Positions 2,651 through 61,673 of a stretch of 64,000 nucleotides of DNA are shown here, one piece after another. Location of the stretch: positions 27,962,001 to 28,026,000 of the forward strand of contig OZ024742.1 in assembly GCA_964016885.1 (NCBI GenBank), in the 5' to 3' direction. Origin of the DNA: Eledone cirrhosa (lineage: Eukaryota). Position 1 is the first letter of the stretch; the number at the start of each line of letters is the position of its first letter. The notes under the pieces were generated by a model, which worked only from the letters and a program-made list of their open reading frames with translations, made no database searches and was not told the DNA's origin. Made by a program: the position numbers and the translations under genes.

Positions 2651-4750
2651 CGGGGAGAAGTGTGTACTTAATGATGATGGCATACTTGCCATCACTGACG
2701 CTGATAAGAAGGTAGCTTGGAAGTGTCACTACGAAAGGCTTCTAAATGAGGAGAATAAATGGGAGAAAGACAGTCTCCCCCACATCGACCCAATAGAGGG
2801 ACCAGCAGTGTTAGTCGAAGGTAGTATAATAAGTAAGGCAATCAAAGATATGAAGACGGGTAAGGCGGCTGGGCCTTCGGAAATAGTTGCTGAGATGCTG
2901 AAAGCCTCTGGAATGGTGGGACACACCATGGTCACCCAGATAGTAAACCAAGTCATACAGAATGGGGTTGTTCCGAAGGACTGGTATAGCAGCATCATCA
3001 TTAACTGTTACAAGTGTAAAGGAGATGCCCTAGATAGGTGTAACTATAGAGGCATTAAATTAATCGACCAGGTCATGAAGGTGACGGAAAAAGTTATAGC
3101 GCAACTAATCAGAGAGAGAATTGATCTAGATGAAATGCAGTTCGGGTTTGTGTCAGGCAAAAGTACCACAGACGCTCTTTTCATTGTACGACAACTACAA
3201 GAGAAGTACCTAGCTAAAAGTAAACCCCTATACTTAGCTTTTGTTGACTTGGAGAAAGCCTTCGACACAGTCCCCCGTTCCATTATCTGGTGGGCTCTTA
3301 GAAAACTAGGTGTTGACGAATGGCTTGTGAGAGCTATACAAGCCATGTATAAAGAAACAGTCAGCAAGGTTAGAATTAACAACGAATATAGTGAAGAGTT
3401 TAGCGTAAAAGTTGGTGTCCATCAGGGCTCTGTTCTTAGCCCCCTACTATTTATTATTGCCCTTCAGGCTATAACAGAGGAGTTCAAGACTGGCTGCCCA
3501 TGGGAACTCCTATACGCAGATGATCTAACGCTCATAGCTGAATCAATGACCGAACTAGAGAAGAAATTCCAAACATGGAAGCACGGCCTAGAATCAAAAG
3601 GCCTTAAAATTAACCTGGCTAAGACTAAAGTTATAGTTTGTAGGAAAGAAAATAAGGCGGCGGTCCCTTCCGGGAAATGGCCATGCTCAGTGTGTAGGAA
3701 AGGCGTAGGTAGAAACTCCATTTTATGTCCCAAATGCAAAGTATGGGTGCATAAAAGATGTAGTGGGATCACAGGTAAGCTAACTAAGAACATAGATTTT
3801 ACATGTGGCCGGTGCTCTGGTGCAATAAGTAGCAGCAAGTGCCCACACATACTAGCTCTTTCAATTGCGCAGAGGGTTCTATAGAAATAGTGGACAGCTT
3901 CCGTTACCTGGATGACAAAATCAGCAGTGGGGGAGGGTGCTCTGAAAGTACAGTAGCTAGAGTCAGAACTGGATGGAAAAAAAATTAGAAATAAGAGGGA
4001 TCAGATGTTGTTTACTCGAGAGAAGGCTACGTTGGTATGGTGACGTGATGCGCATGAAAGACGACAGCTGTATAACAAAGTGCAGGGCAATAAAGATAGA
4101 CGGTAGCCACGGAGTAGGCAGACCCAGAAAAACCTGGGACGACATGATAAATTCCGACCTCACACGCTTACACCTCTCCAAGACAATGTCACTGGACCGA
4201 GACCTTTGGCGGTACTCAGTAATAGAGAAGACCCGCCTTACCTAAATACAAAGTAAAACCTACTACAGTCAGTAGGCATCTCTATCAAAACACCCCCCCC
4301 CCCCCCCACCCCATCTACACCGCCCCTTTCAATGTAAAGTTATGTTGGTGCCACAACATCCAGGCCGAAACAAATGAGATCGTGTAGGTGTCACGACAAA
4401 AAACACACAGTCCATGCTGTAAATGTGGCCGTGTGGGCAACACGGTAAAAACCTCCCAGCCCCACACTGTAAATGTGGTTGGTGTTAGGAAGGGCATCCA
4501 GCTGTAGAAAACCCGCCAGACAGTCCACGCTGTAATGTGGCCGTGTAGGCAACATGGTAAAAATCTCCCAGCCCCACACTGTAAATGTGGTTGGTGTTAG
4601 GAAGGGCATCCAGCTGTAGAAAACCCGCCAGACAGTCCTATGCGAGCAAGACAACCACTCTTGCCTCAAGTGGGAAAACCCCCGTCCAAACCCATGCAAG
4701 CGTGGAACACAGACGCTAAACATTGATGATGATGATGATGATGATGATAT
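2648..4750 (+). mobile_element. RTE-clade LINE subfamily A, 5'-truncated; RT plus PHD-like finger, frameshift near 3850, internal deletion near 3975
   Basis: ORF 2562-3884 has NYRGIKL, QFGF, FVDLEKAFD, GVHQGSVLSP, LYADD and CSVC..CPKC..H..C..CGRC; 3' UTR ends in (GAT)n; the 5' end abuts (TA)n. Confidence 0.95.
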
Positions 4751-4774
4751 ATATTATAATAATAATAATAATAA

Positions 4775-16206: not shown

Positions 16207-16550
16207 GGAGGCACATGGCTTGGTATGGAGGCACGTGGTTTGGTGGTTAGAGTATTGGCCTTGCAATCGAAAGGTCGTGAGTTCAATTCTCAGACCGGGT
16301 GATGTGTTGTTTCCTTGAGCACAATGGCACTATTGCTTCAGTTTACTCAGCTGTAGAAATGAGATGATAGGACTGGGGTCCCTATCAGTCCACTGTAAAG
16401 TCGTCGTGGAGGTGCCACGGCAAAAAAGCACCCAGCACTCACTGTAAATGAGGTTGGTGTTAGGAAGGGCATCCAGCTGTAGAAATCAAGCCAGAATTAG
16501 TTCCCGTCCCACCCTTGCAAGCAGGGAAAAGCGGACATAAAATGAAATGA
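16207..16550 (+). mobile_element. tRNA-derived SINE family 2 with RTE-derived tail
   Basis: Family consensus has A box TGGCTTAGTGG, B box GAGTTCAATTC and a CORE/V-like CCTTGAGCAAGACACTT domain (diverged in this copy); the 3' part matches the LINE 3' UTR. Confidence 0.9.
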
Positions 16551-16677
16551 TATATGTGTATATCTTCCAACTCTCTCAAGCATAAAACTAATTAACTAAC
16601 ATTTATTCATATTGTTTTATTGTGTAGTTTTTTCTTCTTGATCTATTTTGCATATATATATATATGCAAAATATATT

Positions 16678-17008
16678 AGTGGTTAGAGCATTGGCCTTGT
16701 AATCGAAAGGTTGTGAGTTGAATTCTCAGACCGGGTGATGTGTTCTTTCCTTGAGCAAGACACTTTATTTCACATTGCTCTAGTTTACTCAGCTATAGAA
16801 ATGAGATGATAGGGACTGGGGTCCCTATCATTCCACTGCAAAGTGGTCGTGGAGGTGCCACGGCAAAAAAGCACCCAGCACTCACTGTAAATGAGGTTGG
16901 CGTTAGGAAGGGCATCCAGCTGTAGAAATCAAGCCAGCATCAGTTCCCGTCCCACCCTTGCAAGCAGGGAAAAAGCGAACGTAAAATGAAATGATGATGA
17001 ATGATGAT
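16678..17008 (+). mobile_element. SINE family 2
   Basis: Near-identical to 16207-16550. Confidence 0.9.
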
Positions 17009-20079: not shown

Positions 20080-20399
20080 GTTAGTGGTTTAAGCATTGGC
20101 CTTGCAATCGAAAGGTTGTGAGTTCAATTCTCAGACCGGGTGATGTGTTGTTTCCTTGAGCAAGACACTTTATTTCACATTGCTCCAGTTTACTCAGCTG
20201 TAGAAATGAGATGATAGGACTGGGGTCCCTATCATTCCACTGCAAAATGGATGTGGAGGTGCCACGACAAAAAAGCACCCAGCGCTCACTCTAAATGAGG
20301 TTGGTGTTAGGAAGGGCATCCAGCTGTAGAAATCAAGCCAAAATCAGTTCCCGTCCCACTCTTGCAAGCAGGAAAAAACGGATGTAAAATGATGATGAT

Positions 20400-28595: not shown

Positions 28596-28956
28596 GGAGG
28601 CACATGGCTTAGTGATGGAGGCACATGGCTTAGTGGTTAGAGCATTGGCCTTGCAATCGAAAGGTTGTGAGTTCAATTCTCAGATCGGGTGATGTGTTGT
28701 TTTCTTGAGCAAGACATTTTATTTCACATTGCTCCAGTTTACTCAGCTGTAGAAATGAGATCATAAGGACTGGGGTCCCTATCATTCCACTGCAAAGTGG
28801 TCGTGGAGGTGCCACGGCAAAAAAAGCACCCAGCACTCACTGTAAATGAGGTTGGTGTTAGGAAGGGCATCCAGCTGTAGAAATCAAGCCAGAATCAGTT
28901 CCCGTCCCACCCTTGCAAGCAGGGAAAAAGCGGATGTAAAATGAAATGATGATGAT
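28596..28956 (+). mobile_element. SINE family 2 (duplicated 5' head)
   Basis: GGAGGCACATGGCTTAGTG occurs twice, then the standard body and tail. Confidence 0.9.
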
Positions 28957-29140
28957 ATATATATACATATATTATATATATATTTATATATACATATATT
29001 TATATATACATATATTATATATACATATTTATATATGAATATATTATATGTACATATATATATGTATATATACATATGATATATATACATATATATATGT
29101 ATATATACATATATCATATATAGATATTATATATATATAC

Positions 29141-30190
29141 ATCATCATCATCATCAACGTTTAACGTCCGTGTTCCACGCTTGCATGGGTTTGGACGGGG
29201 GTAGTCCCACTTGAGGCAAGAGTGATTGTCTTGCTCGCATAGGACTGTCTGGCAGGTTTTCTACAGTTGGATGCCCTTCCTAACACCAACCACATTTACA
29301 GTGTGGGTCTGGGAGGTTTTTACCGTGCTGCCTACACGGCCACATTACAGCGTGGACTGTGTGTTTTTTTGTCATGACACCTACACGATCTCATTTGTTT
29401 CGGCCTGGATGCATAGAACGGGGTGGGGGTGGTGGGGTATTTTGTTAGAGATGCCTACTGGTTGTAGTAGGTTTTACTATGTATTTAGGTAAGGCGGGTC
29501 CTCCCCGTTACTGAGTACCGCCAAAGGTCTCGGTCCAGTGACACCGTCTTGGAGAGGTGTAAGTGTGTGAGGTCAGAGTTCATCAGCCCGTCCCAGGCCC
29601 TTCTAGGTCCGCCCACTCCGCGGCTACCATCCATCTCTATTGCCCTGCACTTTGTTATACAGCTATCGACTTTCATGCGCATCACGTGTCCACACCAACG
29701 CAGCCCTCCCTCGAGTAAACAACATCTGATCCCTCCCATTTCCAATTTTTTCCTCAGTTCGTCTATGCTTTGCCGCTCATGTACACCACCGTTACACATC
29801 CAGCGGAGCATGCAAGCCTCGTTCCTCTCCAGTCCGCGCATATCCTCTGCACACAATGCCCAGGTCCCACTGCCATGCAACACTGCTGTTCGTATGCAGG
29901 CATCGTACAACCTGCCTTTCACCTTTAGGGAGAACCCTTTAGCAGCCAACAGCGGTATAAGCTCTCCGAACCCCCTCCATCCAGTTCCGACCCTAGCCAC
30001 TGCACCTTCAGAGCACCCTCCACCACTGCCGATTCTATCACCCAGGCAACGGAAGCTGTCCACCATTTCCACAGAACCATCTGTGCAATGGAATGAGCCA
30101 GCACTTTGTGGGCACTTGCTGCTACCTATTGCACCAGAGCACCGGCCACACGTAAAATCTATGCCCCCAGTTAGCCTACCTGTGATCCCG
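29141..30190 (-). mobile_element. RTE LINE subfamily A 3' fragment, A-to-G hypermutated
   Basis: Aligns to 43770-44860 and 39355-40440 but with about 65 A>G changes in the coding part. Confidence 0.95.
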
Positions 30191-32751
30191 AGATAAATGA
30201 GATCGAGATCATGTAGGTATCCTAAAAAAAAAAAAAAAAAAAAAAAAAACACAGAGTCCACGCTGTAATGTGGTCGTGTAGGTAACACGGTAAAAAGTTC
30301 CACATATATATATATACATATTATATATACATATTATATATATATATTATATATATATATACATATTATATATACATATTATATATATGTATATACATAT
30401 CATATATATATATATATACACATATATATATATATACATATACAATTATATATATATATAGATGCACACATACTGACATACACACATATACCTGTATATA
30501 TGTAAAGATAGGAAAGGAGAGAGAGCGAGAAAGAGAGGGTGGAACAGTGAATAAGGACAATTTATCTGATGCTGTATATTTGACAATTAGTGTAAGAGGA
30601 AAATTATATAACACACCATCGATCATAATAATTAATTTATTAATTAAGTTTGTATAATAAATTATTTCTATCCTTGATCTCGAATATATCATCAGTGGAC
30701 TTGTATGGCTTCTCTTGATATTGTAACTGTGAAATGATATTAAAGCAAGTCTAGATATAATATCCTACATAGAAATATGAACTGATATCAAAGATGCTAG
30801 TTATATACTTCATTAAGATAACAATATTTTAATCACTCAAATATTTTAGGATGACTGATTATTACTGATTGATAAATGAGTGGCTTGAATGCTTTACTTT
30901 ATATTTTCTCTATTGTTATTTTAAAACACGAAGTCTTATTTTGTTATTAAATGGATATGACTTTGTACTGAAGCTGGAGTCAAACTTATAACCATCTCGA
31001 TCGATTCATCAATAAACATCTGTTGATTTCAATGATGAGTATTCAAGTTGTTAGATCAATGAAGCAGGCTGCCCATGAAATTAACATGCAAGTGGCTGAG
31101 CATTCCACAGATACATGTACCCTTCATGTAATTCTCATACAGGTTCAGCCTGACAAAATTCATAACAAGGCTGGCCCCTTGATATACAGGTATGATGTAT
31201 CTGACAGGTTTTCAAACAGTTTCCATTTACCCAGTGTCTCTCACAGATATGGATTAACCCTAGGTACATGACACAAGTCCAAGCAGGACATGATTTAGAT
31301 CTTAAGGGTTCACAGGGTAGTATGTATGTATGTATATATATATCATCATCATCACCATTTTACGTCCATTCTTCCACACTAGCATGGGTTAGACGGGTTG
31401 TCCTGTTGTGGGCAGTGTCCGGTCAGCTGACCTTGTCTTGCTCATATGGGAACTGATTCTGGCTTGATTTCTACAGCTGGATGCCCTTCCTAACTAACAC
31501 GAACCTCATTTACAGTGAGTGCTGGGTGCTTTTTTGCCGTAAGCAGAAAGGAAGAGGGAGTATACTCAGCTGAAAATGAAGATCAAGAATAGCTGGGAGT
31601 TTACCCTGCAATGGACTAGTGTCATCTCCAGGGGAAAGTCTGTTACTCTCTGTTGCTTAACGCCATGAAGACTGGGATAACTGATAAACCTCCAGGTTTG
31701 AGACAGACTTTAGTCTTTTAATTTTTTTTATTTGTTTTTATCTCTATTCCTACCATCCGACACACACACATAGAAGCAGTGGCAAGAAGGGAGCTTCTAG
31801 ATAGTAACTCAATCTGTTAGAAATAACAGCTTAATATTCCTCAAACAACATCTCTTACCATCTTAAAGGTGAAAATTACATGTTAGATAAACTAGTCCTA
31901 GATACCCGCTACAAAGACATGTTAGTCACTGTTGGAATGTCTTTCATCATAGTTCTTAATCAGATTTGAGCTAAGACCTTCACACAACATCAAGAACAAA
32001 TTGCGAGATATATTAGCATTTTTATTAAGTTTCACAAGTTCTTTAGTCATATTCATTAGTTTAAATGAATTTCTACAAACCAAATGCAAATGTGTTTTAT
32101 TAAATAAACAGATAAGAACTAGACTAGCAATGTTTCTATCCTAAATATACAACAACAGCAGTAACAACAACAACATACGTTTACATTTCAGTATGTACAA
32201 ATAATGTATTTTTATGTAATTATTTCCATACGAAACTGAATATATTAAAATAACATAATAAATGGATGTTAGGCATTATTTATTATCATTTATTCTTTTC
32301 TGAATTTTCAAAAGAAAAAAAATACTTTTTTTTTTTTTTTTATTAATTTTTAATATTTATCTGTTGGATAGTTCTGCAAATTCAAACATTTGCATATAAA
32401 TTGTTTTGGAAGCAGGTGTTTGTTTGAATACATATTTGTTTTTATTACTTTGGCACTGGTTGTAGCATCATAAAGAGGAGGGGTGGCTGTTTAAATTAAA
32501 ATATTTGTCTTGCTTCCTTTACAATTGGATATATAATCCCAATATTAAATAACCATGCCTGGCTGTGTGGTTAATGGGATTGCTTTACTAACACATGGTT
32601 TCAGGTTTGGTCCCACTGTGCAGCACCTTCAGTAAATGATGTCTACTCTGGTTGCAGAATGACTAATGCCCTGTGAGTGAAATTGGTATAAAGAAACTGT
32701 ATGGAAGATGTGTGTGTGTCTGTGTGTACTTGTAATAAAGGTTCTATTCCA

Positions 32752-33515
32752 ATCATCATCATCATCATCATCATCATCAGGTTTAGCGTCCGTGTTCCAC
32801 GCTTGCATGGGTTTGGACGGGGGTTTTCCCACTTGAGGCAAGAGTGGTTGTCTTGCTCGCATAGGACTGTCTGGCGGGTTTTCTACAGTTGGATGCCCTT
32901 CCTAACACCAACTACATTTACAGTGTGGGTCTGGGAGGTTTTTACCGTGTTGCCTACACGGCCACATTACAGCGTGGACTGTCTGGCGGGTTTTCTACAG
33001 CTGGATGCCCTTCCTAACACCAACCACATTTACAGTGTGGGGCTGGGAGGTTTTTACCGTGTTGCCTACACGGCCACATTTACAGCGTGGACTGTGTGTT
33101 TTTTTTTTGTCGTGACACCTACACGATCTCATTTGTTTCGGCCTGGATGTTGTGGGACCAACATAACTTTACATTGAAAGGGGCGGTGTGGATGGGGTGG
33201 AGGTGGTGGGACGGGGGTGTGTTTTGATAGAGATGCCTACTGACTGTAGTAGGTTTTTACTTTGTATTTAGGTAAGGCGGGTCTTCTCTATTACTGAGTA
33301 CCGCCAATGGTCTCGGTCCAGTAACATTGTCTTGGAGAGGTGTAAGCGTGTGAGGTCGGAATTTATCAGTTCGTCCCATGTTTTTCTGGGTCTGCCTACT
33401 CCGTGGCTACCGTCTATCTTTATTGCCCTGCACATTGTTATACAGCTGTCGTCTTTCATGCGCATCACGTGACCATACCAACGTAGCCTTCTCTCGAGTA
33501 AACAACATCTGATCC
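32752..33515 (-). mobile_element. RTE LINE subfamily A 3' fragment
   Basis: ORF 33268-33528 plus a 3' UTR with internal tandem duplication. Confidence 0.92.
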
Positions 33516-34695
33516 AATAACACAACAAAATACCTGCAGTGAGTTTTAACTCAAAATCCTATGTGTATTAAAATTTTCTGTCTACTAAAAATGTCCCCTC
33601 TCTTATGTACTCTTTGGTTCCTTCTCCTATCTCAAATGATAAATTTTGCTAGTATTAAATACACACAAGACAAATATATATTCCTCTTTTGATCCTGAAA
33701 AGGAGAAATTTGTCTCATATCAGTTTAACTCATTAAAATTTACATTACTCTATATTTACTATCATATTTTCATGATAAAGGCTTTATCTTACATAATTAT
33801 CTCACATAATATCGAATCTATGAGATTTTGATCTTATTTATTTGGAGAATAATACCTTAACATCAGTATGAGTGGCTGGTTACAGCCAGTCTGAGCAGTA
33901 AGAGGGGAGAGAATTGTGGCCGGATATGGTCAGTTTAAATGATAAAGGGTTAATGCCATGGAAACCAGGGGTTAGTACCAGGTCCTAAAAGAACTTCCAA
34001 TTCAGAAATTGGTTATCAGAAATTTCAATATATATTATCTGAATAATGGTTTCTGAATTAAGCACAAGGCCAGCAATTTTGGGGAAGCGGGAAATTCAAT
34101 TAACACTTTAGCATTTAAATCAGCCATATCCGGCCAGAGTTTGCTCATCTCTTTCTGTTCAAAACGGCTGTAACTGGCCGCTCATACTTATGTTAAGGTA
34201 TTGTTCTCAAACTAAATAATATCAAAATCTCATAGATTCGATATCATGTGAAATAATTATGTGAGATAAAGTGTTTACAACAAAAATACAATAGCATATA
34301 TAGAGTAATGTAAATGCAATCCCAGTGTGTTACTCATACTTTATTTTATTTTATCAACCTCGTAAGGATAAAAGGCAAAGCTAACTTCAGTGAGATTTGA
34401 ACTCAGAATATAAAGAGACATAACTATATACCACAAAGCATGTTGTCCAATGTTCTACCAGTTACTGCCAGCCTACTGCCCACTCTTAAATTGTCTAAAT
34501 ATAAATAATGTTCAAAATAGTGAGGTAGATGTGAAATAGATAAGGATAACAGATAGAAATCCATACACACAACAACACCAAGTTTATATTTACACCTGGT
34601 GAGGCAAGGATTTTATTTATAGCAATCTTTTAGTCTCTGTTTTACTTGCTTTATTCTATAGAGTGTGACCATACTGAATCAGTTTTTAACTTTAA

Positions 34696-39351: not shown

Positions 39352-41047
39352 ATCATCATCATCGTTTAAACGTCCGTGTTCCACGCTTGTATGGGTTTGG
39401 ACGGGAGTTTTCCCACTTCAGGCAAGAGTGGTTGTCTTGCTCGCATAGGACTGTCTGGCGGGTTTTCTACAGCTGGATGCCCTTCTTAACACCAACCACA
39501 TTTACAGTGTGGGACTGGGAGGTTTTTACCGTGTTGCCTACACGGCCAGATTACAGCATGGACTGTGTGTTTTTTTGTCGTGACACCTACACGATCTCAT
39601 TTGTTTCGGCCTAGATGTTGTGGAACCAACATAACTTTACATTGAAAGGGGCGGTGTGGATGGGGAGGGGGTGGTGTGACGGGAGCGTATTTTGTTAGAG
39701 ATGACTACTGTCTGTAGTAGGTTTACTTTGTATTTAGGCAAGGCGGGTCTTCTCTGTTACTGAGTACCGCCAAAGATCTCGGTGCAGTGACATTGTCTTG
39801 GAGAGGTGTAAGTGTGTGAAGTCGGAATTTATCAGGTCGTCCCAGGTTTTTCTGGGTCTGCCTACTCCGTGGCTACCGTCTATCTTTATTGCCCTGCACT
39901 TTTTTATACTGCTGTCGTCTTTCATGCGCATCACGTGACCATACTAACGTAGCCTTCTCTCGAGTAAACAACATCTGATCCCTCTTATTTCTAATTTTTT
40001 CCTTAGTTCGTTTATGCTTTGCCGTTCCCGTATATTACTATTACACATCCAGCGGAGCATGCAAGCTTCGTTCCTCTCTAGTCTGCGTATATCCTCTGCA
40101 CACAATGCCCAGGTCTCACTGCCATGCAACATTGCTGTTCGTATGCAGGCATCATACAACCTGCCTTTCATTTTTAGGGAGAATACTTTAGCGGCTAATA
40201 GTGGTATAAGCTCTCTGAACTTTTTCCATCCAGGTCTGACTCTAGCTACTGTACTTTCAGATCACCCTCCCCCATGCTGATTTTGTCGCCCAGGTAACGG
40301 AAGCTGTCCACTATTTCTATAGAACCCTCTGCGCAATTGAAAGAGCTAGTATTCTGTGGGCACTTGCTGCTACTTATTGCACCAGAGCACCGGCCACATG
40401 TAAAATCTATGTTCTTAGTTAGCTTACCTGTGATCCCACTACATCTTTTATGCACCCATACTTTGCATTTGGGACATAAAATGGAGTTTCTACCTACGCC
40501 TTTCCTACACACTGAGCATGGCCATTTTCCGGAAGGGACCGGCGCCTTATTTTCTTTCCTACAAACTAGAACTTTAGTCTTAGCCAGGTTAATTTTAAGG
40601 CCTTTTGATTCTAGGCCGTGCTTCCATGTTTGGAATTTCTTCTCTAGCTCAGCCATTGATTCTGCTATGAGCGTTAGATCATCTGCGTATAGGAGTTCCC
40701 ATGGGCAGCCGGTCTTGAACTCCACTGTTATAGCCTGAAGGGCAATAATAAATAGTAGGAGGCTAAGAACAGAGCCCTGATGAACACCAACTTTTACACT
40801 AAACTCTTCACTATATTCATTGTTAATTCTAACCTTGCTGACTGTTTCTTTATACATGGCTTGTATAGCTCTCACAAGCCATTCGTCAACACCTAGTTTT
40901 CTAAGAGCCCACCAGATAATGGAACGGGGGCTCTGTCGAAGGCTTTCTCCAAGTCAACAAAAGCTAAGTATAGGGGTTTACTTTTAGCTAGGTACTTCTC
41001 CTGTAGTTGTCGTACAATGAAAAGAGCGTCTGTGGTACTTTTGCCTG
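39352..41047 (-). mobile_element. RTE LINE subfamily A, 5'-truncated, disrupted
   Basis: ORF pieces 40893-41153, 40246-40875 (LYADD, PHD-like finger), 39944-40171 and 39734-39934; (ATC)n tail; the 5' end abuts (TA)n. Confidence 0.95.
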
Positions 41048-43719: not shown

Positions 43720-44862
43720 TTGCATTTTATGTCCCAAATGCAAAGTATGGGTGCATAAAAGATGTAGTGGGATCACAGGTAAGCTAACTAAGAATATAGA
43801 TTTTATATGTGGCCGGTGCTCTGGTGCAATAAGTAGCAGCAAGTGCCCACAGAATACTAGCTCATTCCATTGCACAGATGGTTCTATAGAAATAGTGGAC
43901 ACCTTCCGTTACCTGGGTGACAAAATCAGCAGTGGTGGAGGGTGCTCTGAAAGAACAGTAGCTAGAGTCAGAACGGGATGGAAAAAGTTCAGAGAGCTTA
44001 TACCACTATTGGCCGCTAAAGGGTTCTCTCTAAGAATGAAAGGCAGGCTGTATGATGCCTGCATACGAACAGCAATGTTACATGGCAGTGAGACCTGGGC
44101 ATTGTGTGCAGAGGATATACGCAGACTGGAGAGGAATGAAGCTTGCATGCTCCGCTGGATGTGTAATAGTAATATACATGAACGGCAAAGCATAAACGAA
44201 CTAAGGGAGAAATTAGGAATAAGAGGGATCAGATGCTGTTTACTCGAGAGAAGACTATGTTGATACGGTCACGTGATGTGCATGAAAGACGACAGCTGTA
44301 TAAAAAAAGTGCAGGGCAATAAAAATAGATGGTAGCCACGGAGTAGGCAGATCCAGAAAAACCTGGGACGACTTGATAAATTCCGACCTCACACACTTAC
44401 ATCTCTCCAAGACAATGTCACTGGACCAAGATTTTTGGCACTACACAGTAATACAGAAGACCCGCCTTGCCTAAGTACAAAGCGAAACCTAGAGTCAATA
44501 GGCACCTCTAACAAAAATACACCCCCATCCCACTACCCCCCACCCCACCCCCCACCCCTTAAATGTGAAGTTATGTTGGTACCACAACATCCAATCCGAA
44601 ACAAATGAGGTCGTGTAGGTGTCATGACAAAAAAACACACAGTCCACGCTGTAATGTGGCCGTGTAGGTAACACGGTAAAAACCTCCCAGTCCACACTGT
44701 AAACGTGGTTGGTGTTAGGAAGGGCATCCAGCTGTAGAAAACCCGCCAGACAGTCCTATGCGAGCAAGACAACCAATCTTGCCTCAAGTGGGAAAATTCA
44801 CGTCCAAACCCATGCAAGCGTGGAAGATGGACGTTAAATGATGATGATGATGATGATGATAT
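43720..44862 (+). mobile_element. RTE LINE subfamily A 3' fragment
   Basis: ORF 43661-44263 from ILCPKC onward, 3' UTR, (GAT)n. Confidence 0.93.
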
Positions 44863-46715: not shown

Positions 46716-49480
46716 ATCATCATCATCATCATCACCGTTTTACGTCCGTTCTTCCACGCTAGCATGGGTTAGACGGGTTGTCCTGTTGTGGGCAGTGTCT
46801 GGTCGGCTGACCATGCCTTGCTCATACAGGAACTGATCTGGCTTGATTTCTACAGCTGGATGCCCTTCCTAACACCAACCTCATTTACAGTGAGTGCTGG
46901 GTGCTTTTTCGTGGCGCCTACACGTCCACTTTACAGTGTGGGCTGGGTGCTTTTTTGCCGTGGCACCTCCACGACCACCTTGCGGTGGGGGGGGGGGGGG
47001 GCATATTGTTTATATGCTTCAGCATGTACCCATGGGAGGTCGGGTACCCTGTATTACTGTGTGACGCCAGAAGTCACGGTCGTGTGTCATTGACTTTGAG
47101 AGGTGTAGTTGGGTAAGGTCGGCTTTTATCACCTCATCCCAAGTCATCTTGGGTCTCCCCACTCCGCGGTTTCCATCAACTTCTAGTGCTCTGCACCTTT
47201 TTATGCAGCTGTCATCCTTCATACGCATCACATGTCCATACCAGCGTAACCGCCTCTCCTGCACGCAGCATTTGATTCCTCTTATGCTCAGTCTCTCTCT
47301 CAATTCCTTTATGCTTTGTCGTTCACGTATATTACTGTTACACATCCATCGGAGCATGCAGGCTTCGTTTCTCTCTAATCTACGTAAGTCTTCCACCTTC
47401 AGCGCCCAGGTCTCACTACCATGCAACATCGCTGTTCGGATACACGCATCATACAGTCTGCCTTTCATTCTGAGGGAGAAGCCTTTTGCAGCTAGCAGTG
47501 GTAGTAGTTCCCTAAACTTCTTCCATCCCGTTCTTACCCTAGTTATTGTACTTTCTGAGCACCCACCTCCGTTGCTAATTCGGTCACCTAGGTAGCAGAA
47601 GCTGTCTACTGTTTCTACAGGGCCCTCCCAGAGATTGGTGGTACTTGTTTCCTGTGGCTGTTTGCTTGCTGTTTCAGCACAGCTGCTGCATGTGAATCCT
47701 ACATTCTTAATTAAGCTTCCTGAGATTCCGCTACATCTCTTGTGTACCCATTGTTTGCATTTGGGGCAGAGAATGGAGTTCCTACCTACACCTTTCCTAC
47801 ATACTGAGCAAGGCCATTTCCCTGAGGGGATCTGGGTTATGTTTTCTCGTCTACTTATAAGGACCTTAGTCTTTGTCATGTTGACTTTGAGGCCCTTTCT
47901 CTCTAGTCCCTGCTTCCAGGTTTGGAATTTATTCTCTAGTTCTACCATAGATTCAGCTATGAGTGTGAGGTCATCAGCATACAGGAGTTCCCATGGGCAT
48001 CCGGTCTTAAACTCCTCCGTTATTGCCTGCAGGACTATGATGAACAGGAGAGGGCTAAGAACAGAGCCCTGGTGGACCCCAACCTGTACGCTAAATTCCT
48101 CGCTATACTCATTGCCAATCCTAACTTTGCTGACTGCTCCCCTATACATGGCTTGTACCGCTTTCACAAGCCATTCATCTACTCCTAGTTTTCTAAGAGC
48201 CCACCAGATTACTGCACGTGGAACTCTGTCAAAGGCTTTCTCAAGGTCGACAAATGCCAAGTAGAGTGGCTTACTTTTAGCTAGGTACTTTTCCTGTAAT
48301 TGCCTCACAAGGAAGAGGGCATCAGTGGTGCCTCTCCCTGGTACAAACCCAAATTGCATCTCGTCTATATTCACCCGGTCCCTAATCAGCTGTGCTATAA
48401 CTCTTTCTGTTACTTTCATGACCTGGTCCATCAACTTTATACCTCTATAGTTTCCTCTATCTAGTGCATCGCCTTTACCTTTGTAGCAGTTGACAATGAT
48501 GCTACTGCACCAATCTTTTGGTATGGCTCCCTCTAGTATTACCTGGTTAACGATACGTGTGGTTATAGTGTGACCTACAGACCCAGATGCCTTCAGCATC
48601 TCGGCAGCTATACCCGATGGACCGGTTGCCTTCCCTATCTTCATATCTCTGATTGCCTTACTTACTACGCTGCCGCTGACTTGTACTGCTGGTCCCTCTA
48701 TAGGGTCTACGTGGGGTAGGGTCTCTTCTTCCCATGCATTCTCCTCATTTAGTAATCTATCATAATGACTCTTCCATGCATCTTTCTTCTCAGCACTTGT
48801 GAGGGCAAGCTCACCTTTATCATTCCGGATACACTTCTCTCCAATGACATCACAACTATCTCTGACACACTGCCTCGCAATCTTGAATACCTCCTGTTTC
48901 TGGTCCTCACGTTGTAAAACATGCTTGAATTTTCTATCCTCTGCTTCCCTCCTAGCTAAGTATACTTGTCGCCTAGCTTCCCTCTTGGTCTCTATGTAAT
49001 GTACCCTGCTCCCCCCATTCTTCCATTCTTTCCATGCCTGTCTCTTGGCCTTGACTGCTTCATCTATCTTATTGTTCCACCACCAAGTCACTCTCCTCCT
49101 GCTTGAGGTCTTACTCCAGCCACAAACCTCATCCGTCGCCTCTAGTAAGTTATTTTTTAGGAACTCCCAGTTCTCTTCTACGTTAAATGTCTCTATCTGT
49201 TCTTCTTTACTGTCGTAGGCGTTGAGTAAAATATCTTTAAATCTGTTACTGGTTGAGGGGACTTTCAGCTTCCAGATCTTTCTTCTCCAGGTTGGCCTCT
49301 GTTTCAGGGCTCGTCTAGTTCTGACCGTGAGGTCGCTGACAACTAAGCTATGTTGGGATGTACATTCCTCACTAGGGAAGGCTTTTGTGTTTACGACCGT
49401 CCATCTGTCACGTCCTCTGATGAGGATAAAATCTAACTGACTAGAGTGCTCCCCTGATCTATAGGTGATCAGGTGGTTGT
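46716..49480 (-). mobile_element. RTE LINE subfamily B, longest copy; uninterrupted frame from the APE C-terminus through RT and PHD-like finger
   Basis: Frame open from about 49478 (HLITYRSGEHSSQLDFILI..SQHSLVV, APE motifs) to the stop at 47019; includes the 690-aa ORF with LYADD. Confidence 0.97.
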
Positions 49481-49729
49481 CGGGTTTTTTTTACTATATA
49501 TATATATATAGTTATGTAATAAACAACATAAGACAATTATTCCATTTACCTAAGGTTTCACCAAGACAGACAAGCTCAACACAGACGCCTGTGTTGAGCT
49601 TGTCTGTCTTGGTGAAACCTTTGGTAAATGGAATAATTTATTACATAATTAAATAGCTCTGTAACCTACATAGAGCAATCTCCTTTCCTTTACCTTTCCT
49701 ACGGAAACACTTAATATATATATATCTAT

Positions 49730-50060
49730 GGAGGCACATGGCTTAGTGGTTAGAGCATTGGCCTTGCAATCGAAAGGTTGTGAGTTCAATTCCGGGTGAT
49801 GTGTTGTTTCCTTGAGCAAGACACTTTATTTCACATTGCTCCAGTTTACTCAGCTGTAGAAATGAGATGATAGGGACTGGGGTCCCTATCATTCCACTGC
49901 AAAGTGGTCGTGGAGGTGCCATGGCAAAAAAGAATCCAGTCCACACTGTAAATGAGGTTGGTGTTAGAAAGGGCATCCAGCTGTAGAAATCAAGCCAGAA
50001 TCAGTTTCCGTCCCACCCTTGATAAGCAGGGAAAAGCGGACGTAAAATGATGATGATGAT
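49730..50060 (+). mobile_element. SINE family 2
   Basis: As 16207-16550. Confidence 0.9.
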
Positions 50061-56486: not shown

Positions 56487-56618
56487 ACTTGTTTTTGCCG
56501 AGAATAAATAAGTGACATAGTCACTACTTTAAAACTCATAGTGAATGGTCTTCAAAATGTTTTTAATTAAACACAGTAAATTGCCAAATATACTATACAT
56601 ACATTCATATATATATAT

Positions 56619-58836
56619 AATTCAAGCATGTTTTACAACGTGAGGACCAGAAACAGGAGGTATTCAAGATTGCGAGGCAGTGTGTCAGAGATAGTTGTGA
56701 TGTCATTGGAGAGAAGTGTATCCGGAATGATAAAGGTGAGCTTGCCCTCACAAGTGCTGAGAAGAAAGATGCATGGAAGAGTCATTATGATAGATTACTA
56801 AATGAGGAGAATGCATGGGAAGAAGAGACCCTACCTCATGTAGACCCTATAGAGGGACCAGCAGTACAAGTCAGCGGCAGCATAGTAAGTAAGGCAATCA
56901 GAGATATGAAGATGGGGAAGGCAACCGGTCCATCGGGTATAGCTGCCGAGATGCTGAAGGCATCTGGGTCTGTAGGTCACACTATAACCACACGTATCGT
57001 TAACCAGGTAATACTAGAAGGGGCCATACCAAAAGATTGGTGCAGTAGCATCATTGTCAACTGCTACAAAGGTAAAGGCGATGCACTAGATAGAGGAAAC
57101 TATAGAGGTATAAAGTTGATGGACCAGGTCATGAAAGTAACAGAAAGAGTTATAGCACAGCTGATTAGGGACCGGGTGAATATAGACGAGATGCAATTTG
57201 GGTTTGTACCAGGGAGAGGCACCACTGATGCCCTCTTCCTTGTGAGGCAATTACAGGAAAAGTACCTAGCTAAAAGTAAGCCACTCTACTTGGCATTTGT
57301 CGACCTTGAGAAAGCCTTTGACAGAGTTCCACGTGCAGTAATCTGGTGGGCTCTTAGAAAACTAGGAGTAGATGAATGGCTTGTGAAAGCGGTACAAGCC
57401 ATGTATAGGGGAGCAGTCAGCAAAGTTAGGATTAGCAATGAGTATAGCGAGGAATTTAGCGTACAGGTTGGGGTCCACCAGGGCTCTGTTCTTAGCCCTC
57501 TCCTGTTCATCATAGTCCTGCAGGCAATAACGGAGGAGTTTAAGACCGGATGCCCATGGGAACTCCTGTATGCTGATGACCTCGCACTCATAGCTGAATC
57601 TATGGTAGAACTAGAGAATAAATTCCAAACCTGGAAGCAGGGACTAGAGAGAAAGGGCCTCAAAGTCAACATGACAAAGACTAAGGTCCTTGTAAGAGGA
57701 CGAGAAAACAGAACCCAGATCCCCTCAGGGAAATGGCCTTGCTCAGTATGTAGGAAAGGTGTAGGTAGGAACTCCATTCTCTGCCCCAAATGCAAACAAT
57801 GGGTACACAAAAGATGTAGCGGGATCTCAGGAAGCTTAATTAAGAATGTAGGATTCACATGCAGCAGCTGTGCTGAAACAGCAAGCAAACAGCCACAGGA
57901 AACAAGTACCACCAATCTCTGGGAGGGCCCTGTAGAAACAGTAGACAGCTTCTGCTACCTAGGAGACCGAATTAGCAACGGAGGTGGGTGCTCAGAAAGT
58001 ACAATAACTAGGGTAAGAACGGGATGGAAGAAGTTTAGGGAACTACTACCACTGCTAGCTGCAAAAGGCTTCTCCCTCAGAATGAAAGGCAGACTGTATG
58101 ATGCGTGTATCCGAACAGCGATGTTGCATGGTAGTGAGACCTGGGCGCTGAAGGTGGAAGACTTACGTAGATTAGAGAGAAACGAAGCCTGCATGCTCCG
58201 ATGGATGTGTAACAGTAATATACGTGAACGACAAAGCATAAATGAATTGAGAGAGAGACTGAGCATAAGAGGAATCAAATGCTGTGTGCAGGAGAGGCGG
58301 TTACGCTGGTATGGACATGTGATGCGTATGAAGGATGACAGCTGCATAAAAAGGTGCAGAGCACTAGAAGTTGATGGAAACCGCGGAGTGGGGAGACCCA
58401 AGATGACTTGGGATGAGGTGATAAAAGCCGACCTTACCCAACTGCACCTCTCAAAGACAATGACACACGACCGTGACTTCTGGCGTCACGCAGTAATACA
58501 GGGTACCCGACCTCCCATGGGTACATGCTGAAGCATATAAACAATATGCCCCCACTCCCCCCACCGCAAGGTGGTCGTGGAGGTGCCACGGCAAAATAGC
58601 ACCCAGCCCACACTGTAAAGTGGACGTGTAGGCGCCACGAAAAAGCACCCAGCACTCACTGTAAATGAGGTTGGTGTTAGGAAGGGCATCCAGCTGTAGA
58701 AATCAAGCCAGATCAGTTCCTGTATGAGCAAGGCATGGTCAGCCGACCAGACACTGCCCACAACAGGACAACCCGTCTAACCCATGCTAGCGTGGAAGAA
58801 CGGACGTAAAACGGTGATGATGATGATGATGATGAT
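56619..58836 (+). mobile_element. RTE LINE subfamily B, 5'-truncated, intact RT-PHD frame
   Basis: The 541-aa ORF is almost identical to the 47019-49091 ORF; TA on both sides. Confidence 0.97.
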
Positions 58837-60575: not shown

Positions 60576-61325
60576 TTTTAGATTTAATACAGAGAGATAG
60601 TGTATGAGATATTCATACATACAGAAACAAAAATGTATGACTGAATACACATATTCTTTCTCCAAAAATGTGTTTCCATTCCATCCTTTTCTCTCTATCT
60701 TTCTATTTTATCTTTTATTTCTCATTCCATCTTTTAGTGAAGGCCTAGTGTCCGAAACGTTAAGACTCTTTTTCCTATCATATCAAGCATTAAACTAATA
60801 TATTTATTCATTGTACTGTGTTGCTTGCTTTGTTGTTTCTGTTATTTTTGCATATAAATATATATATGTGTGTGTGTGTGTGTATGTTGAATCTCTGTAG
60901 AAGAAGGACTGGGAAGGCCACAAATCAGAGTAGTACTCAATGCATGTAGGAATGGAGAGTGGATATATTACTGAGGTAAGATTCAACTGCAAGCTTGTTA
61001 GGTTACGGGCCAAAACCGCTCAAGCTTGCAGTTGAATCTCTTCCTCGTTAATATATTACATAATAAAATAAATATATAAATCATATACATATATATATAG
61101 TGAAGGCGTGTGGCTGAGTGGTTAGAGAATTGGATTCACAATCGTAAGGTTGTGAGTTCGATTCCTGGACCAGGTGATGCGTTATGTCTTTGAGCAAGAC
61201 ACTTTATTTCACGTTGCTCCTTCTACCTGGAGTTGATAGATAGTATTAGCAATTGGAAAGACCAACGGAAACATTGTTCCCTCGGTCCGATTTGACGAAA
61301 GTCGATCGTTCCTTTATATATATAT

Positions 61326-61673
61326 GGAGGCACATGGCTTAGTGGTTAGAGCATTGGCCTTGCAATCAAAAGGTTGTAAGTTCAATTCTCAGACCGGGTG
61401 ATGTGTTGTTTCCTTGAGCAAGACACTTTATTTCACATTGCTCCAGTTTACTCAGCTGTAGAAATGAGATGATAGGGACTGGGGTCCCTATCATTCCACT
61501 GCAAAGTGGTCGTGGAGGTGCTACGGCAAAAAAGCACCCAGCACTCACTGTAAATGAGGCTGGTGTTAGGAAGGGCATCCAGCTGTAGAAATCAAGCCAG
61601 AATCAGTTCCCGTCCCACCCTTGCAAGCAGGGAAAAGTGGATGTAAAATGAAATGATGATGATGAATGATGAT
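61326..61673 (+). mobile_element. SINE family 2 (flanked by a head-only variant at 61101-61220 and a partial copy at 61683-61862)
   Basis: As 16207-16550. Confidence 0.9.

What the first reader, a model, noticed from the sequence alone, without database searches (positions are those of the whole stretch)
29495..30190. Fossil of ADAR hyper-editing: LINE copy with about 65 sense-strand A-to-G changes
Seen: aligned by hand to sibling copies (43770-44470, 39735-40440, 3760-4245), this copy has about 65 A>G substitutions on the LINE sense strand in about 700 nt, against about a dozen other changes. They are clustered: CTAAGAAC>CTGGGGGC, GGAAAAAG>GGAGGGGG, AGTAATATA>GGTGGTGTA, AGAAAAACC>AGAAGGGCC. 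An A directly 3' of G is usually spared, and A followed by G is often hit. The protein drifts K/N/S/R>G, I>V/M, Y>C, T>A with no stops. Known: this is the ADAR neighbour preference, inosine is copied as G by reverse transcriptase, and coleoid cephalopods have very extensive A-to-I editing; APOBEC would instead give G>A or C>T. Inference: a hyper-edited LINE RNA was retrotransposed in the germ line, so RNA editing was written into DNA. This could be an ADAR-based retroelement restriction or diversification route.
Basis: partly seen in the sequence, partly recalled or inferred. Interest (0 to 1): 0.92.

Follow-up and report, generated by a model that had tools for sequence, protein, structure and literature searches.

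The report
RNA-edited retrotransposon copy written into DNA
A jumping-gene copy carries dozens of one-way A-to-G changes with the fingerprint of an RNA-editing enzyme, and its unedited parent still sits elsewhere in the genome, so edits made on an RNA appear to have been copied back into inherited DNA.

Summary
Confirmed and extended. The 1.05-kb LINE copy at 29140-30190 (-) differs from an unedited copy on contig C18 by 68 A>G and 7 other changes. C18 is the probable source: only these two places share the 5' chimeric junction, and this copy carries 111 nt of C18 flank. At C18 the element lies antisense inside an older copy, so read-through RNA folds into a ~700-bp hairpin; 67 of 231 A's there are changed, 1 of 115 beyond. 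Neighbours follow ADAR rules (after G 6 of 58, after T 24 of 52). Three more sense-strand copies (up to 263 A>G) and, unexpectedly, two tail-less antisense-edited fragments turned up, against 11,356 family matches. Best reading (0.88): ADAR-hyper-edited RNA was reverse-transcribed into the germ line. It is rare (probably under 0.1% of copies) and leaves no family-wide A>G excess, so restriction or diversification is not supported. No read-level confirmation was obtained. Ten literature searches found no report for a LINE; the nearest precedents are edited avian retroviruses and APOBEC-edited ERVs. The scan noted a like L1 copy in another genome (e1-8045548).

The parts
29140..30190 (-). 5'-truncated copy (1051 nt) of an RTE-like LINE: last 234 codons of the ORF, 3' UTR and (GAT)n tail
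   Evidence: Alignment to siblings and to the source copy L002; family ORF typed from a full-length copy, L115
29501..30176 (-). Hyper-edited tract: 67 A>G at 231 A's (29%), ADAR neighbour bias; matches the part that pairs with the inverted copy at the source locus
29140..29490 (-). 3' UTR and tail, almost unedited (1 of 115 A's, at 29328); nt 841-943 of the copy are 81% like the 3' part of the local SINE, so probably the region the reverse transcriptase recognises (inference)
30191..30301 (-). 5' transduction: flank of the C18 source locus (a piece of an older copy's 3' UTR in the opposite orientation), with an A-run of 26 against 9 at the source; cut off by 5' truncation
28955..29139 (.). 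TA-rich microsatellite target, tail side; a target-site duplication cannot be resolved in it
30302..30460 (.). TA-rich microsatellite target, 5' side

Best explanation
A truncated, non-autonomous RTE-like LINE copy (B) on contig C18 had inserted antisense into the 3' UTR of an older relative (A). A read-through transcript crossing the locus folded back into a ~700-bp duplex between B's coding part and A (shown: geometry and predicted fold; inferred: that it was transcribed in germ cells or the early embryo). ADAR deaminated about 29% of the adenosines in that duplex (inferred from strand, type and neighbours). The family's reverse transcriptase, supplied in trans, bound B's unedited 3' UTR, primed in the (GAT)n tail at a nick in a TA microsatellite on contig C3, read inosine as G and stopped about 100 nt into the source flank (junction shown; enzyme steps inferred). 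The result is a fixed DNA record of one edited RNA molecule. The same accident happened a few other times in this family; it is a rare by-product, not a main route of family evolution.
For: 68 A>G against 7 other changes relative to one identifiable copy. That copy shares 7 of the 8 non-A>G differences from the family majority and two 3' UTR deletions and the 5' junction, found at 2 places in the genome only; C18 holds both halves of copy A, this locus only 111 nt of it, which gives the direction. In the minimum-energy fold of the 2220-nt source region, 42-48 of every 50 nt of B pair with A over nt 1-700, 36 and 19 over the next two bins, 0-12 beyond nt 800; edits: 67 of 231 against 1 of 115 (p=1e-12). 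Neighbour rates summed over five copies, each against its nearest unedited relative: 5' T 215/367, A 208/427, C 75/357, G 34/336; 3' G 218/435, A 139/428, T 88/299, C 87/326. Human ADARs give 5' U>A>C>G with 3' G best (PMC3113232, passages). Independent copies: L025 263 A>G and 3 others in 2577 nt, L039 75 A>G and 0 other substitutions in 1040 nt; patterns overlap by only about half, as separate molecules would. Not conversion from A: the copy takes A's base at 2 of 78 other differences, and 57 of 67 edits are at sites where A also has A. Hyper-editing is exceptionally strong in octopus RNA (PMC5625713, passages).
Against: No raw reads or RNA data confirm the locus. Finer hairpin tests were not significant: A:C mismatches 8 of 17 against 57 of 203 (p=0.16), with the same trend in L025, which did not pair with A; no clear trend with local pairing. 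L025 and L039 also spare the last 290-298 nt, so the unedited 3' end may reflect protein binding or selection, not hairpin shape; only the focal gap at nt 701-750 (0 of 24 against 11 in L039 and 3 in L025) points to A in particular. Two fragments are edited on the antisense strand and have no tail, which plain tail-primed copying of sense RNA does not explain; my searches for their sources found only themselves. Published bulk octopus hyper-editing has a weak 3' G preference (20-25% of sites, A enriched; PMC5625713) whereas 41% of the 532 sites here have 3' G. Human L1 RNA was not edited by ADAR1 in culture (PMC5224506, passages). No promoter or transcript was found for the source, and ADAR genes were not looked for in this genome.
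Confidence: 0.88

Rival explanations
1. Deamination happened on DNA: ADAR (or another adenosine deaminase) acted on the DNA strand of an RNA:DNA hybrid, during reverse transcription or later in place.
For: ADARs edit dA in DNA/RNA hybrids at A-C mismatches in model substrates (PMC12925331, passages). Editing of first-strand cDNA would read as T>C on the sense strand, and two T>C fragments exist.
Against: For the focal copy first-strand editing predicts T>C, but 0-1 T>C and 67-68 A>G are seen. 57 of 67 edits are at paired, not mismatched, sites. In-place editing guided by the inverted neighbours in this window, which match the 3' UTR as well, would not spare it. The T>C fragments lack the tail that primes first-strand synthesis, while 30 of 30 sampled copies keep their 3' UTR.
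Confidence: 0.05
2. Assembly artefact: cDNA contamination or polishing with edited RNA reads turned an ordinary copy into a G-rich one.
For: No read-level check was obtained. Octopus RNA is heavily hyper-edited. L039 lies at the end of a 22-kb contig and has no other substitution.
Against: The focal copy lies inside a 379-Mb contig with its own microsatellite flanks and a junction derived from another contig. Edit patterns look like single molecules (29-51% of A's, half shared), not a majority vote of many reads. Reads 10% divergent would normally not be used in polishing (established practice, not tested). The spared 3' end in three tailed copies has no reason under polishing.
Confidence: 0.04
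3. Burst of reverse-transcriptase misincorporation (C opposite template A) caused by nucleotide-pool imbalance, without a deaminase.
For: It would also give sense-strand A>G confined to one insertion (inference).
Against: It should run from the primer onward, but the first 290-360 nt copied are almost clean in three copies. It does not predict the 5' U>A>C>G order seen on whichever strand is edited.
Confidence: 0.02
4. An ordinary G-rich subfamily, or gene conversion from a G-rich relative.
For: A few G's are shared with older copies; one short G-rich tract is shared by two insertions, L071 and L073.
Against: Only 3 of 11,356 motif matches carry both test G's, each with its own pattern. The closest copy in the genome search is the A-rich C18 copy.
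Confidence: 0.01

Closest known systems
ADAR-hyperedited avian retroviruses (Rous-associated virus, avian leukosis virus; Hajjar and Linial 1995, Felder et al. 1994, seen only as summarised in the review PMC12925331)
   Same: A-to-G at up to about half of the adenosines in an inverted-repeat region of a retroelement RNA, carried into DNA by reverse transcription.
   Different: Those are exogenous LTR retroviruses in infected cells. Here it is a non-LTR element, apparently inherited, with the source locus and its inverted partner still in the genome and several independent events.
APOBEC 'DNA editing' of endogenous retroelements (PMC4866542 and PMC2873906, passages)
   Same: Clustered, strand-biased, motif-bearing substitutions in single genomic copies relative to a sibling; a fossil of a deaminase acting during retrotransposition.
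   Different: G>A from cytidine deamination of cDNA in vertebrate LTR elements. That screen covered LTR elements, called other mismatch types very rare and found invertebrates at noise level. Here A>G, an RNA-stage enzyme, a LINE, an invertebrate.
Hyper-edited RNA clusters in inverted repeats (PMC4365171, PMC5625713, passages)
   Same: Density, 5' G depletion, location in a long duplex formed by inverted repeat copies.
   Different: Those are seen in RNA only and vanish with the molecule; the 3' G preference here is stronger than reported for bulk octopus RNA.
ADAR1 restriction of human LINE-1 (PMC5224506, passages)
   Same: ADAR meets a LINE RNA.
   Different: There the effect is editing-independent and no edits were found in more than 2.5 kb of L1 RNA. 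A 2016 review calls a role of ADAR editing in retrotransposon evolution logical but undetermined (PMC4982230, passages).
RTE-2_OV, the full-length RTE LINE of Octopus vulgaris (PMC9115989, passages)
   Same: One ORF of about 1100 aa with endonuclease and reverse transcriptase.
   Different: Its 3' UTR is a microsatellite starting at the ORF end and it has a C2H2 finger; this family has a ~350-nt unique 3' UTR and a PHD finger, and 4 of 4 published primers tested mismatch at 6-7 positions. A different family.

Membership tests
ADAR hyper-edited sequence | Cluster of A>G on one strand, other changes rare | tested here: met
   68 A>G, 7 others, against the source
ADAR hyper-edited sequence | 5' neighbour order U>A>C>G | tested here: met
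   46%, 38%, 20%, 10% in the focal copy; summed over five copies 59%, 49%, 21%, 10%; reference order from PMC3113232
ADAR hyper-edited sequence | 3' neighbour preference as known for the lineage | tested here: inconclusive
   3' G best (30 of 67), as for human ADAR1/2, but bulk octopus RNA shows weak 3' G and A enrichment (those figures are shares of sites, not rates)
ADAR hyper-edited sequence | Edits lie in long double-stranded RNA | tested here: met
   Predicted hairpin at the source covers the edited 700 nt; prediction only, finer tests not significant
ADAR hyper-edited sequence | Edited RNA from the locus observed; loss on ADAR knock-down | not testable with these tools
   No RNA data were obtained
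Non-LTR retrotransposition product | Intact 3' tail with 5' truncation | tested here: met
   (GAT)n tail at 29140-29156; 5' end 111 nt into source flank
Non-LTR retrotransposition product | Target-site duplication | tested here: inconclusive
   Both flanks are TA microsatellite
Non-LTR retrotransposition product | Flanks unrelated to the source (not a segmental duplication) | tested here: met
   Likeness ends at the tail and at 30301
RTE-clade LINE | Single ORF with APE endonuclease and reverse transcriptase | tested here: met
   1139-aa stop-to-stop ORF in full-length copy L115; Pfam Exo_endo_phos, RVT_1 and a PHD finger. Single-ORF criterion recalled
RTE-clade LINE | Microsatellite-like 3' end shared with a SINE partner | tested here: met
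   (GAT)n tail; 81% over 105 nt to the local SINE; criterion from PMC6007223 (passages)
RTE-clade LINE | Reverse-transcriptase phylogeny groups with RTE elements | not tested
   No reference RTE sequences in hand; Atlas look-alikes are unnamed RVT_1+PHD clusters. The name 'RTE-like' rests on anatomy
APOBEC-edited retroelement | G>A on the sense strand | tested here: not met
   0 G>A against the source
RTE-2_OV | Published primer sites; microsatellite directly after the ORF | tested here: not met

The most novel reading that the evidence does not exclude
This genome holds a datable, single-molecule fossil record of germ-line A-to-I editing. The LINE reverse transcriptase captures edited duplex RNA of either strand, including tail-less antisense pieces, and an edited tract can be passed on to further insertions (L071 and L073 share one). 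If so, edited host transcripts could also be written into cephalopod genomes, giving a direct RNA-edit-to-DNA route that a genome-wide screen could measure, and the strong 3' G bias would point to which ADAR works in the germ line.
Probability: 0.3. Interest if true: 0.93.

Novelty: new variant of a known kind. Interest (0 to 1): 0.82.

Why it matters
A-to-I editing is treated as non-heritable. Reviews call its imprint on retrotransposon DNA plausible but unshown, and genome screens for edited retroelements concentrated on APOBEC G>A in vertebrate LTR elements. Here one insertion comes with its unedited parent, its predicted duplex and sister events, so three open questions become testable from genome sequence alone: whether ADAR acts on retroelement RNA in the germ line, which ADAR does so, and which part of a LINE RNA must stay unedited to be copied. 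It also gives a rate: very low in this family, which argues against editing as a mutational defence here.

Tried and rejected
A T>C motif meant as a negative control was not negative: 2 of 2 hits are antisense-edited fragments; a second T>C motif recaptured only one of them, L079; L078 does not cover that motif. Idea that these fragments are 5' transductions by the neighbouring element: junction searches found only the fragments themselves, so it is unsupported. Sources of L025 and L039: many equally close siblings, none singled out (14 of 39 and 14 of 39 other hits examined). Hairpin fine structure: not significant; replacing edited A's by G did not weaken the predicted fold, but G is a poor stand-in for inosine. 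A stable fold of the last 290 nt as the reason it is spared: z = -0.62, not supported. Family-wide A>G excess: private A>G 39 of 40,241 A positions against T>C 38 of 27,070 T positions in 66 young alignments, no neighbour bias; lineage-derived A>G 18 of 624 against T>C 23 of 424: rejected. Other LINE and SINE copies in the window show no A>G excess. In one search three old, 65-72% alignments tripped my A>G flag and two subfamily copies my T>C flag; I set them aside as ordinary divergence. ARAGORN found no tRNA in the SINE. Two papers I wanted were not held (Hajjar and Linial 1995; Carmi et al. 2011, recalled only). No supplements were read; those of the retroelement-editing screens may hold A>G cases.

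Full report
Observation. The stretch 29495-30190 is the coding part of a 5'-truncated LINE copy on the - strand (29140-30190, tail (GAT)n) inserted in a TA microsatellite. Against the column majority of 31 other copies (29 from a genome search, 2 from the window) it has 67 A>G at 228 A's, no T>C and 8 other substitutions; 30 of the 31 have 0-8 A>G over the same stretch. I examined 30 of the 40 hits of that search. The open frame is real but says nothing, since A>G cannot create a stop from a sense codon.

The parent. The best genome hit, L002 on contig C18, has no A>G in this stretch yet shares 7 of the 8 other differences, two deletions in the 3' UTR and the exact 5' junction. That junction occurs at two places only, here and C18. 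At C18 the element (B) sits antisense inside the 3' UTR of an older relative (A), with both halves of A present; the window copy holds B plus 111 nt of A's far half and then unrelated microsatellite. So C18 is the source and this copy is a retrocopy of a read-through RNA with a 5' transduction, mobilised in trans because B is too short to encode its own protein (inference). The two differ by 68 A>G and 7 other changes in 1051 nt. Those 7, two of them CpG decays in the window copy, suggest both copies have aged since the event, which fits inheritance (inference).

The duplex. B's first 770 nt match A in the opposite orientation at about 86%. Folding the 2220-nt source region pairs 42-48 of each 50 nt of B with A over nt 1-700, fewer over 701-800 and almost none beyond. 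Edits: 67 of 231 A's in nt 1-700, 1 of 115 after. The copy did not take A's bases (2 of 78 other differences), so this is not conversion. Against over-reading: A:C mismatches and local pairing quality did not predict edits significantly, and two other edited copies also leave the last 290-298 nt clean. The clean end may therefore be protected by the LINE protein or needed for copying; it includes the segment shared with the local SINE (stringent 3' recognition as described in PMC6007223, passages). I put the hairpin with A as the actual partner at about 0.65.

The signature. In the focal copy an A is changed after T in 24 of 52 cases, after A 27 of 71, after C 10 of 50, after G 6 of 58; before G 30 of 67. 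Summed by hand over five copies, each against its nearest unedited relative, the 532 edits give 59, 49, 21 and 10% for 5' T, A, C, G and 50% for 3' G against 27-32% for the others. Human ADAR1 and ADAR2 give 5' U>A>C>G and 3' G first (PMC3113232, passages); hyper-edited RNA shows the same G pattern (PMC4365171, passages). One discord: bulk octopus hyper-edited RNA has a weak 3' G preference (PMC5625713, passages). That paper implies octopus also has an ADAR with the canonical residue, so a different ADAR may dominate in the germ line (inference).

How common. An editing-tolerant 34-mer matches 11,356 places; requiring two hot-spot G's leaves 3: this copy, L025 and L039. Two more motifs added L076 and the pair L071/L073. 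The focal copy and L025 were caught by 3 of 3 motifs, L039 by 2, L076 by 1; the motifs were chosen knowing the first two, so this is a rough count. L025 has 263 A>G and 3 other changes over 2577 nt, L039 75 and none over 1040; pairs share about half their sites. None of the first 30 listed matches is edited. The rate is probably under 0.1% of copies. Among unedited copies there is no A>G excess in private or lineage-derived changes. So the data do not support editing as a restriction or diversification route, apart from the one shared tract in L071/L073.

An unexpected result. A T>C motif meant as control found two fragments edited on the antisense strand with the same neighbour rules (70 of 138 and 57 of 154 A's). 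Both lack the 3' UTR and tail, which 30 of 30 sampled copies keep at least in part. They may be antisense arms of edited duplexes captured by priming on TA repeats or carried by a neighbouring element; searches for their sources found nothing. They could instead reflect editing of cDNA, the main reason the DNA-level rival keeps 0.05.

The family. A full-length copy has one 1139-aa frame with endonuclease, reverse transcriptase and a PHD finger; the closest solved structures are L1 ORF2p and R2. I call it RTE-like on anatomy; no tree was made. It is not RTE-2_OV. The host is probably an octopus (3.0 Gb, four contigs of 379-443 Mb, TA-rich repeats; recalled likeness, untested).

What is known. 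Ten full-text searches (the last on RTE insertion, not on editing) listed no report of ADAR-hyper-edited LINE copies fixed in a genome; the library lacks most subscription papers, two wanted papers were not held and no supplements were read. I saw passages only, of PMC4982230, PMC12988792, PMC9068888, PMC5224506, PMC4866542, PMC2873906, PMC5974252, PMC4365171, PMC12925331, PMC9115989, PMC5625713, PMC3113232 and PMC6007223. Nearest precedents: A-to-G hyper-edited avian retroviruses (via the review) and APOBEC-edited ERVs. Squid edits outside coding regions fall mostly in repeats (PMC9068888).

Verdict. Real; best explained as an ADAR-edited RNA copied into the genome (0.88), with its parent identified. 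Shown: spectrum, context, source, junction, sister events, rarity. Inferred: transcription, the enzyme, germ-line timing. Missing: read-level and RNA confirmation. New variant of a known kind; interest 0.82.

Noticed in passing
L078:1321-1917 (G000:C2, 391.94 Mb) and L079:1195-1889 (G000:C3, 106.93 Mb): Tail-less internal fragments of the same LINE, between TA microsatellites, edited on the antisense strand (70 of 138 and 57 of 154 A's, ADAR neighbours). Each lies 5', on the edited strand, of another retroelement, and 2-3 kb from an inverted 75-77% relative. Route of integration unexplained.
   Followed up: partly
L071 (G000:C1, 352.87 Mb) and L073 (G000:C3, 118.96 Mb): Two separate insertions share one short tract with 7 A>G within 100 nt of alignment but differ at other subfamily sites: possibly an edited tract passed on by conversion or re-copying.
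   Followed up: partly
L025 (G000:C7:81238173-81240751); L039 (C1199 end); L076 (C14, 17.55 Mb): Further sense-edited copies: 263 A>G in 2.6 kb; 75 in 1 kb; 43 A>G against 10 T>C in an older copy with no close sibling in hand, so weaker.
   Followed up: yes
L115:4546-7965 (G000:C7, 72.17 Mb): Full-length copy with an open 1139-aa frame; a PHD finger (residues 875-918) sits right after the Pfam RT match, and the focal copy starts inside it. Similar RVT_1+PHD clusters exist in the Atlas.
   Followed up: partly
window 46716-48937 (-) and 56613-58833 (+): Inverted pair of a related LINE family, 98.8% identical over 2.2 kb and 8 kb apart: recent local duplication or conversion, and a strong potential ADAR substrate.
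   Followed up: no
window 28615-28956, 16225-16551, 16676-17000, 20081-20399, 49728-50060, 61324-61663: A SINE, 92-96% alike between copies, whose 3' part matches this LINE's 3' UTR (81% over 105 nt): a probable SINE/LINE pair.
   Followed up: partly
window 3755-4760 and 32760-33520: Sibling copies with a tandem duplication of about 115 nt in the 3' UTR; the first also lacks about 220 nt of coding sequence.
   Followed up: no
window 30224-30249: An A-run of 26 where the source has 9: slippage during copying or later expansion.
   Followed up: no
L111:5227-9060 (G000:C3, 106.93 Mb): A TA/CA microsatellite of about 3.8 kb beside the antisense-edited fragment.
   Followed up: no
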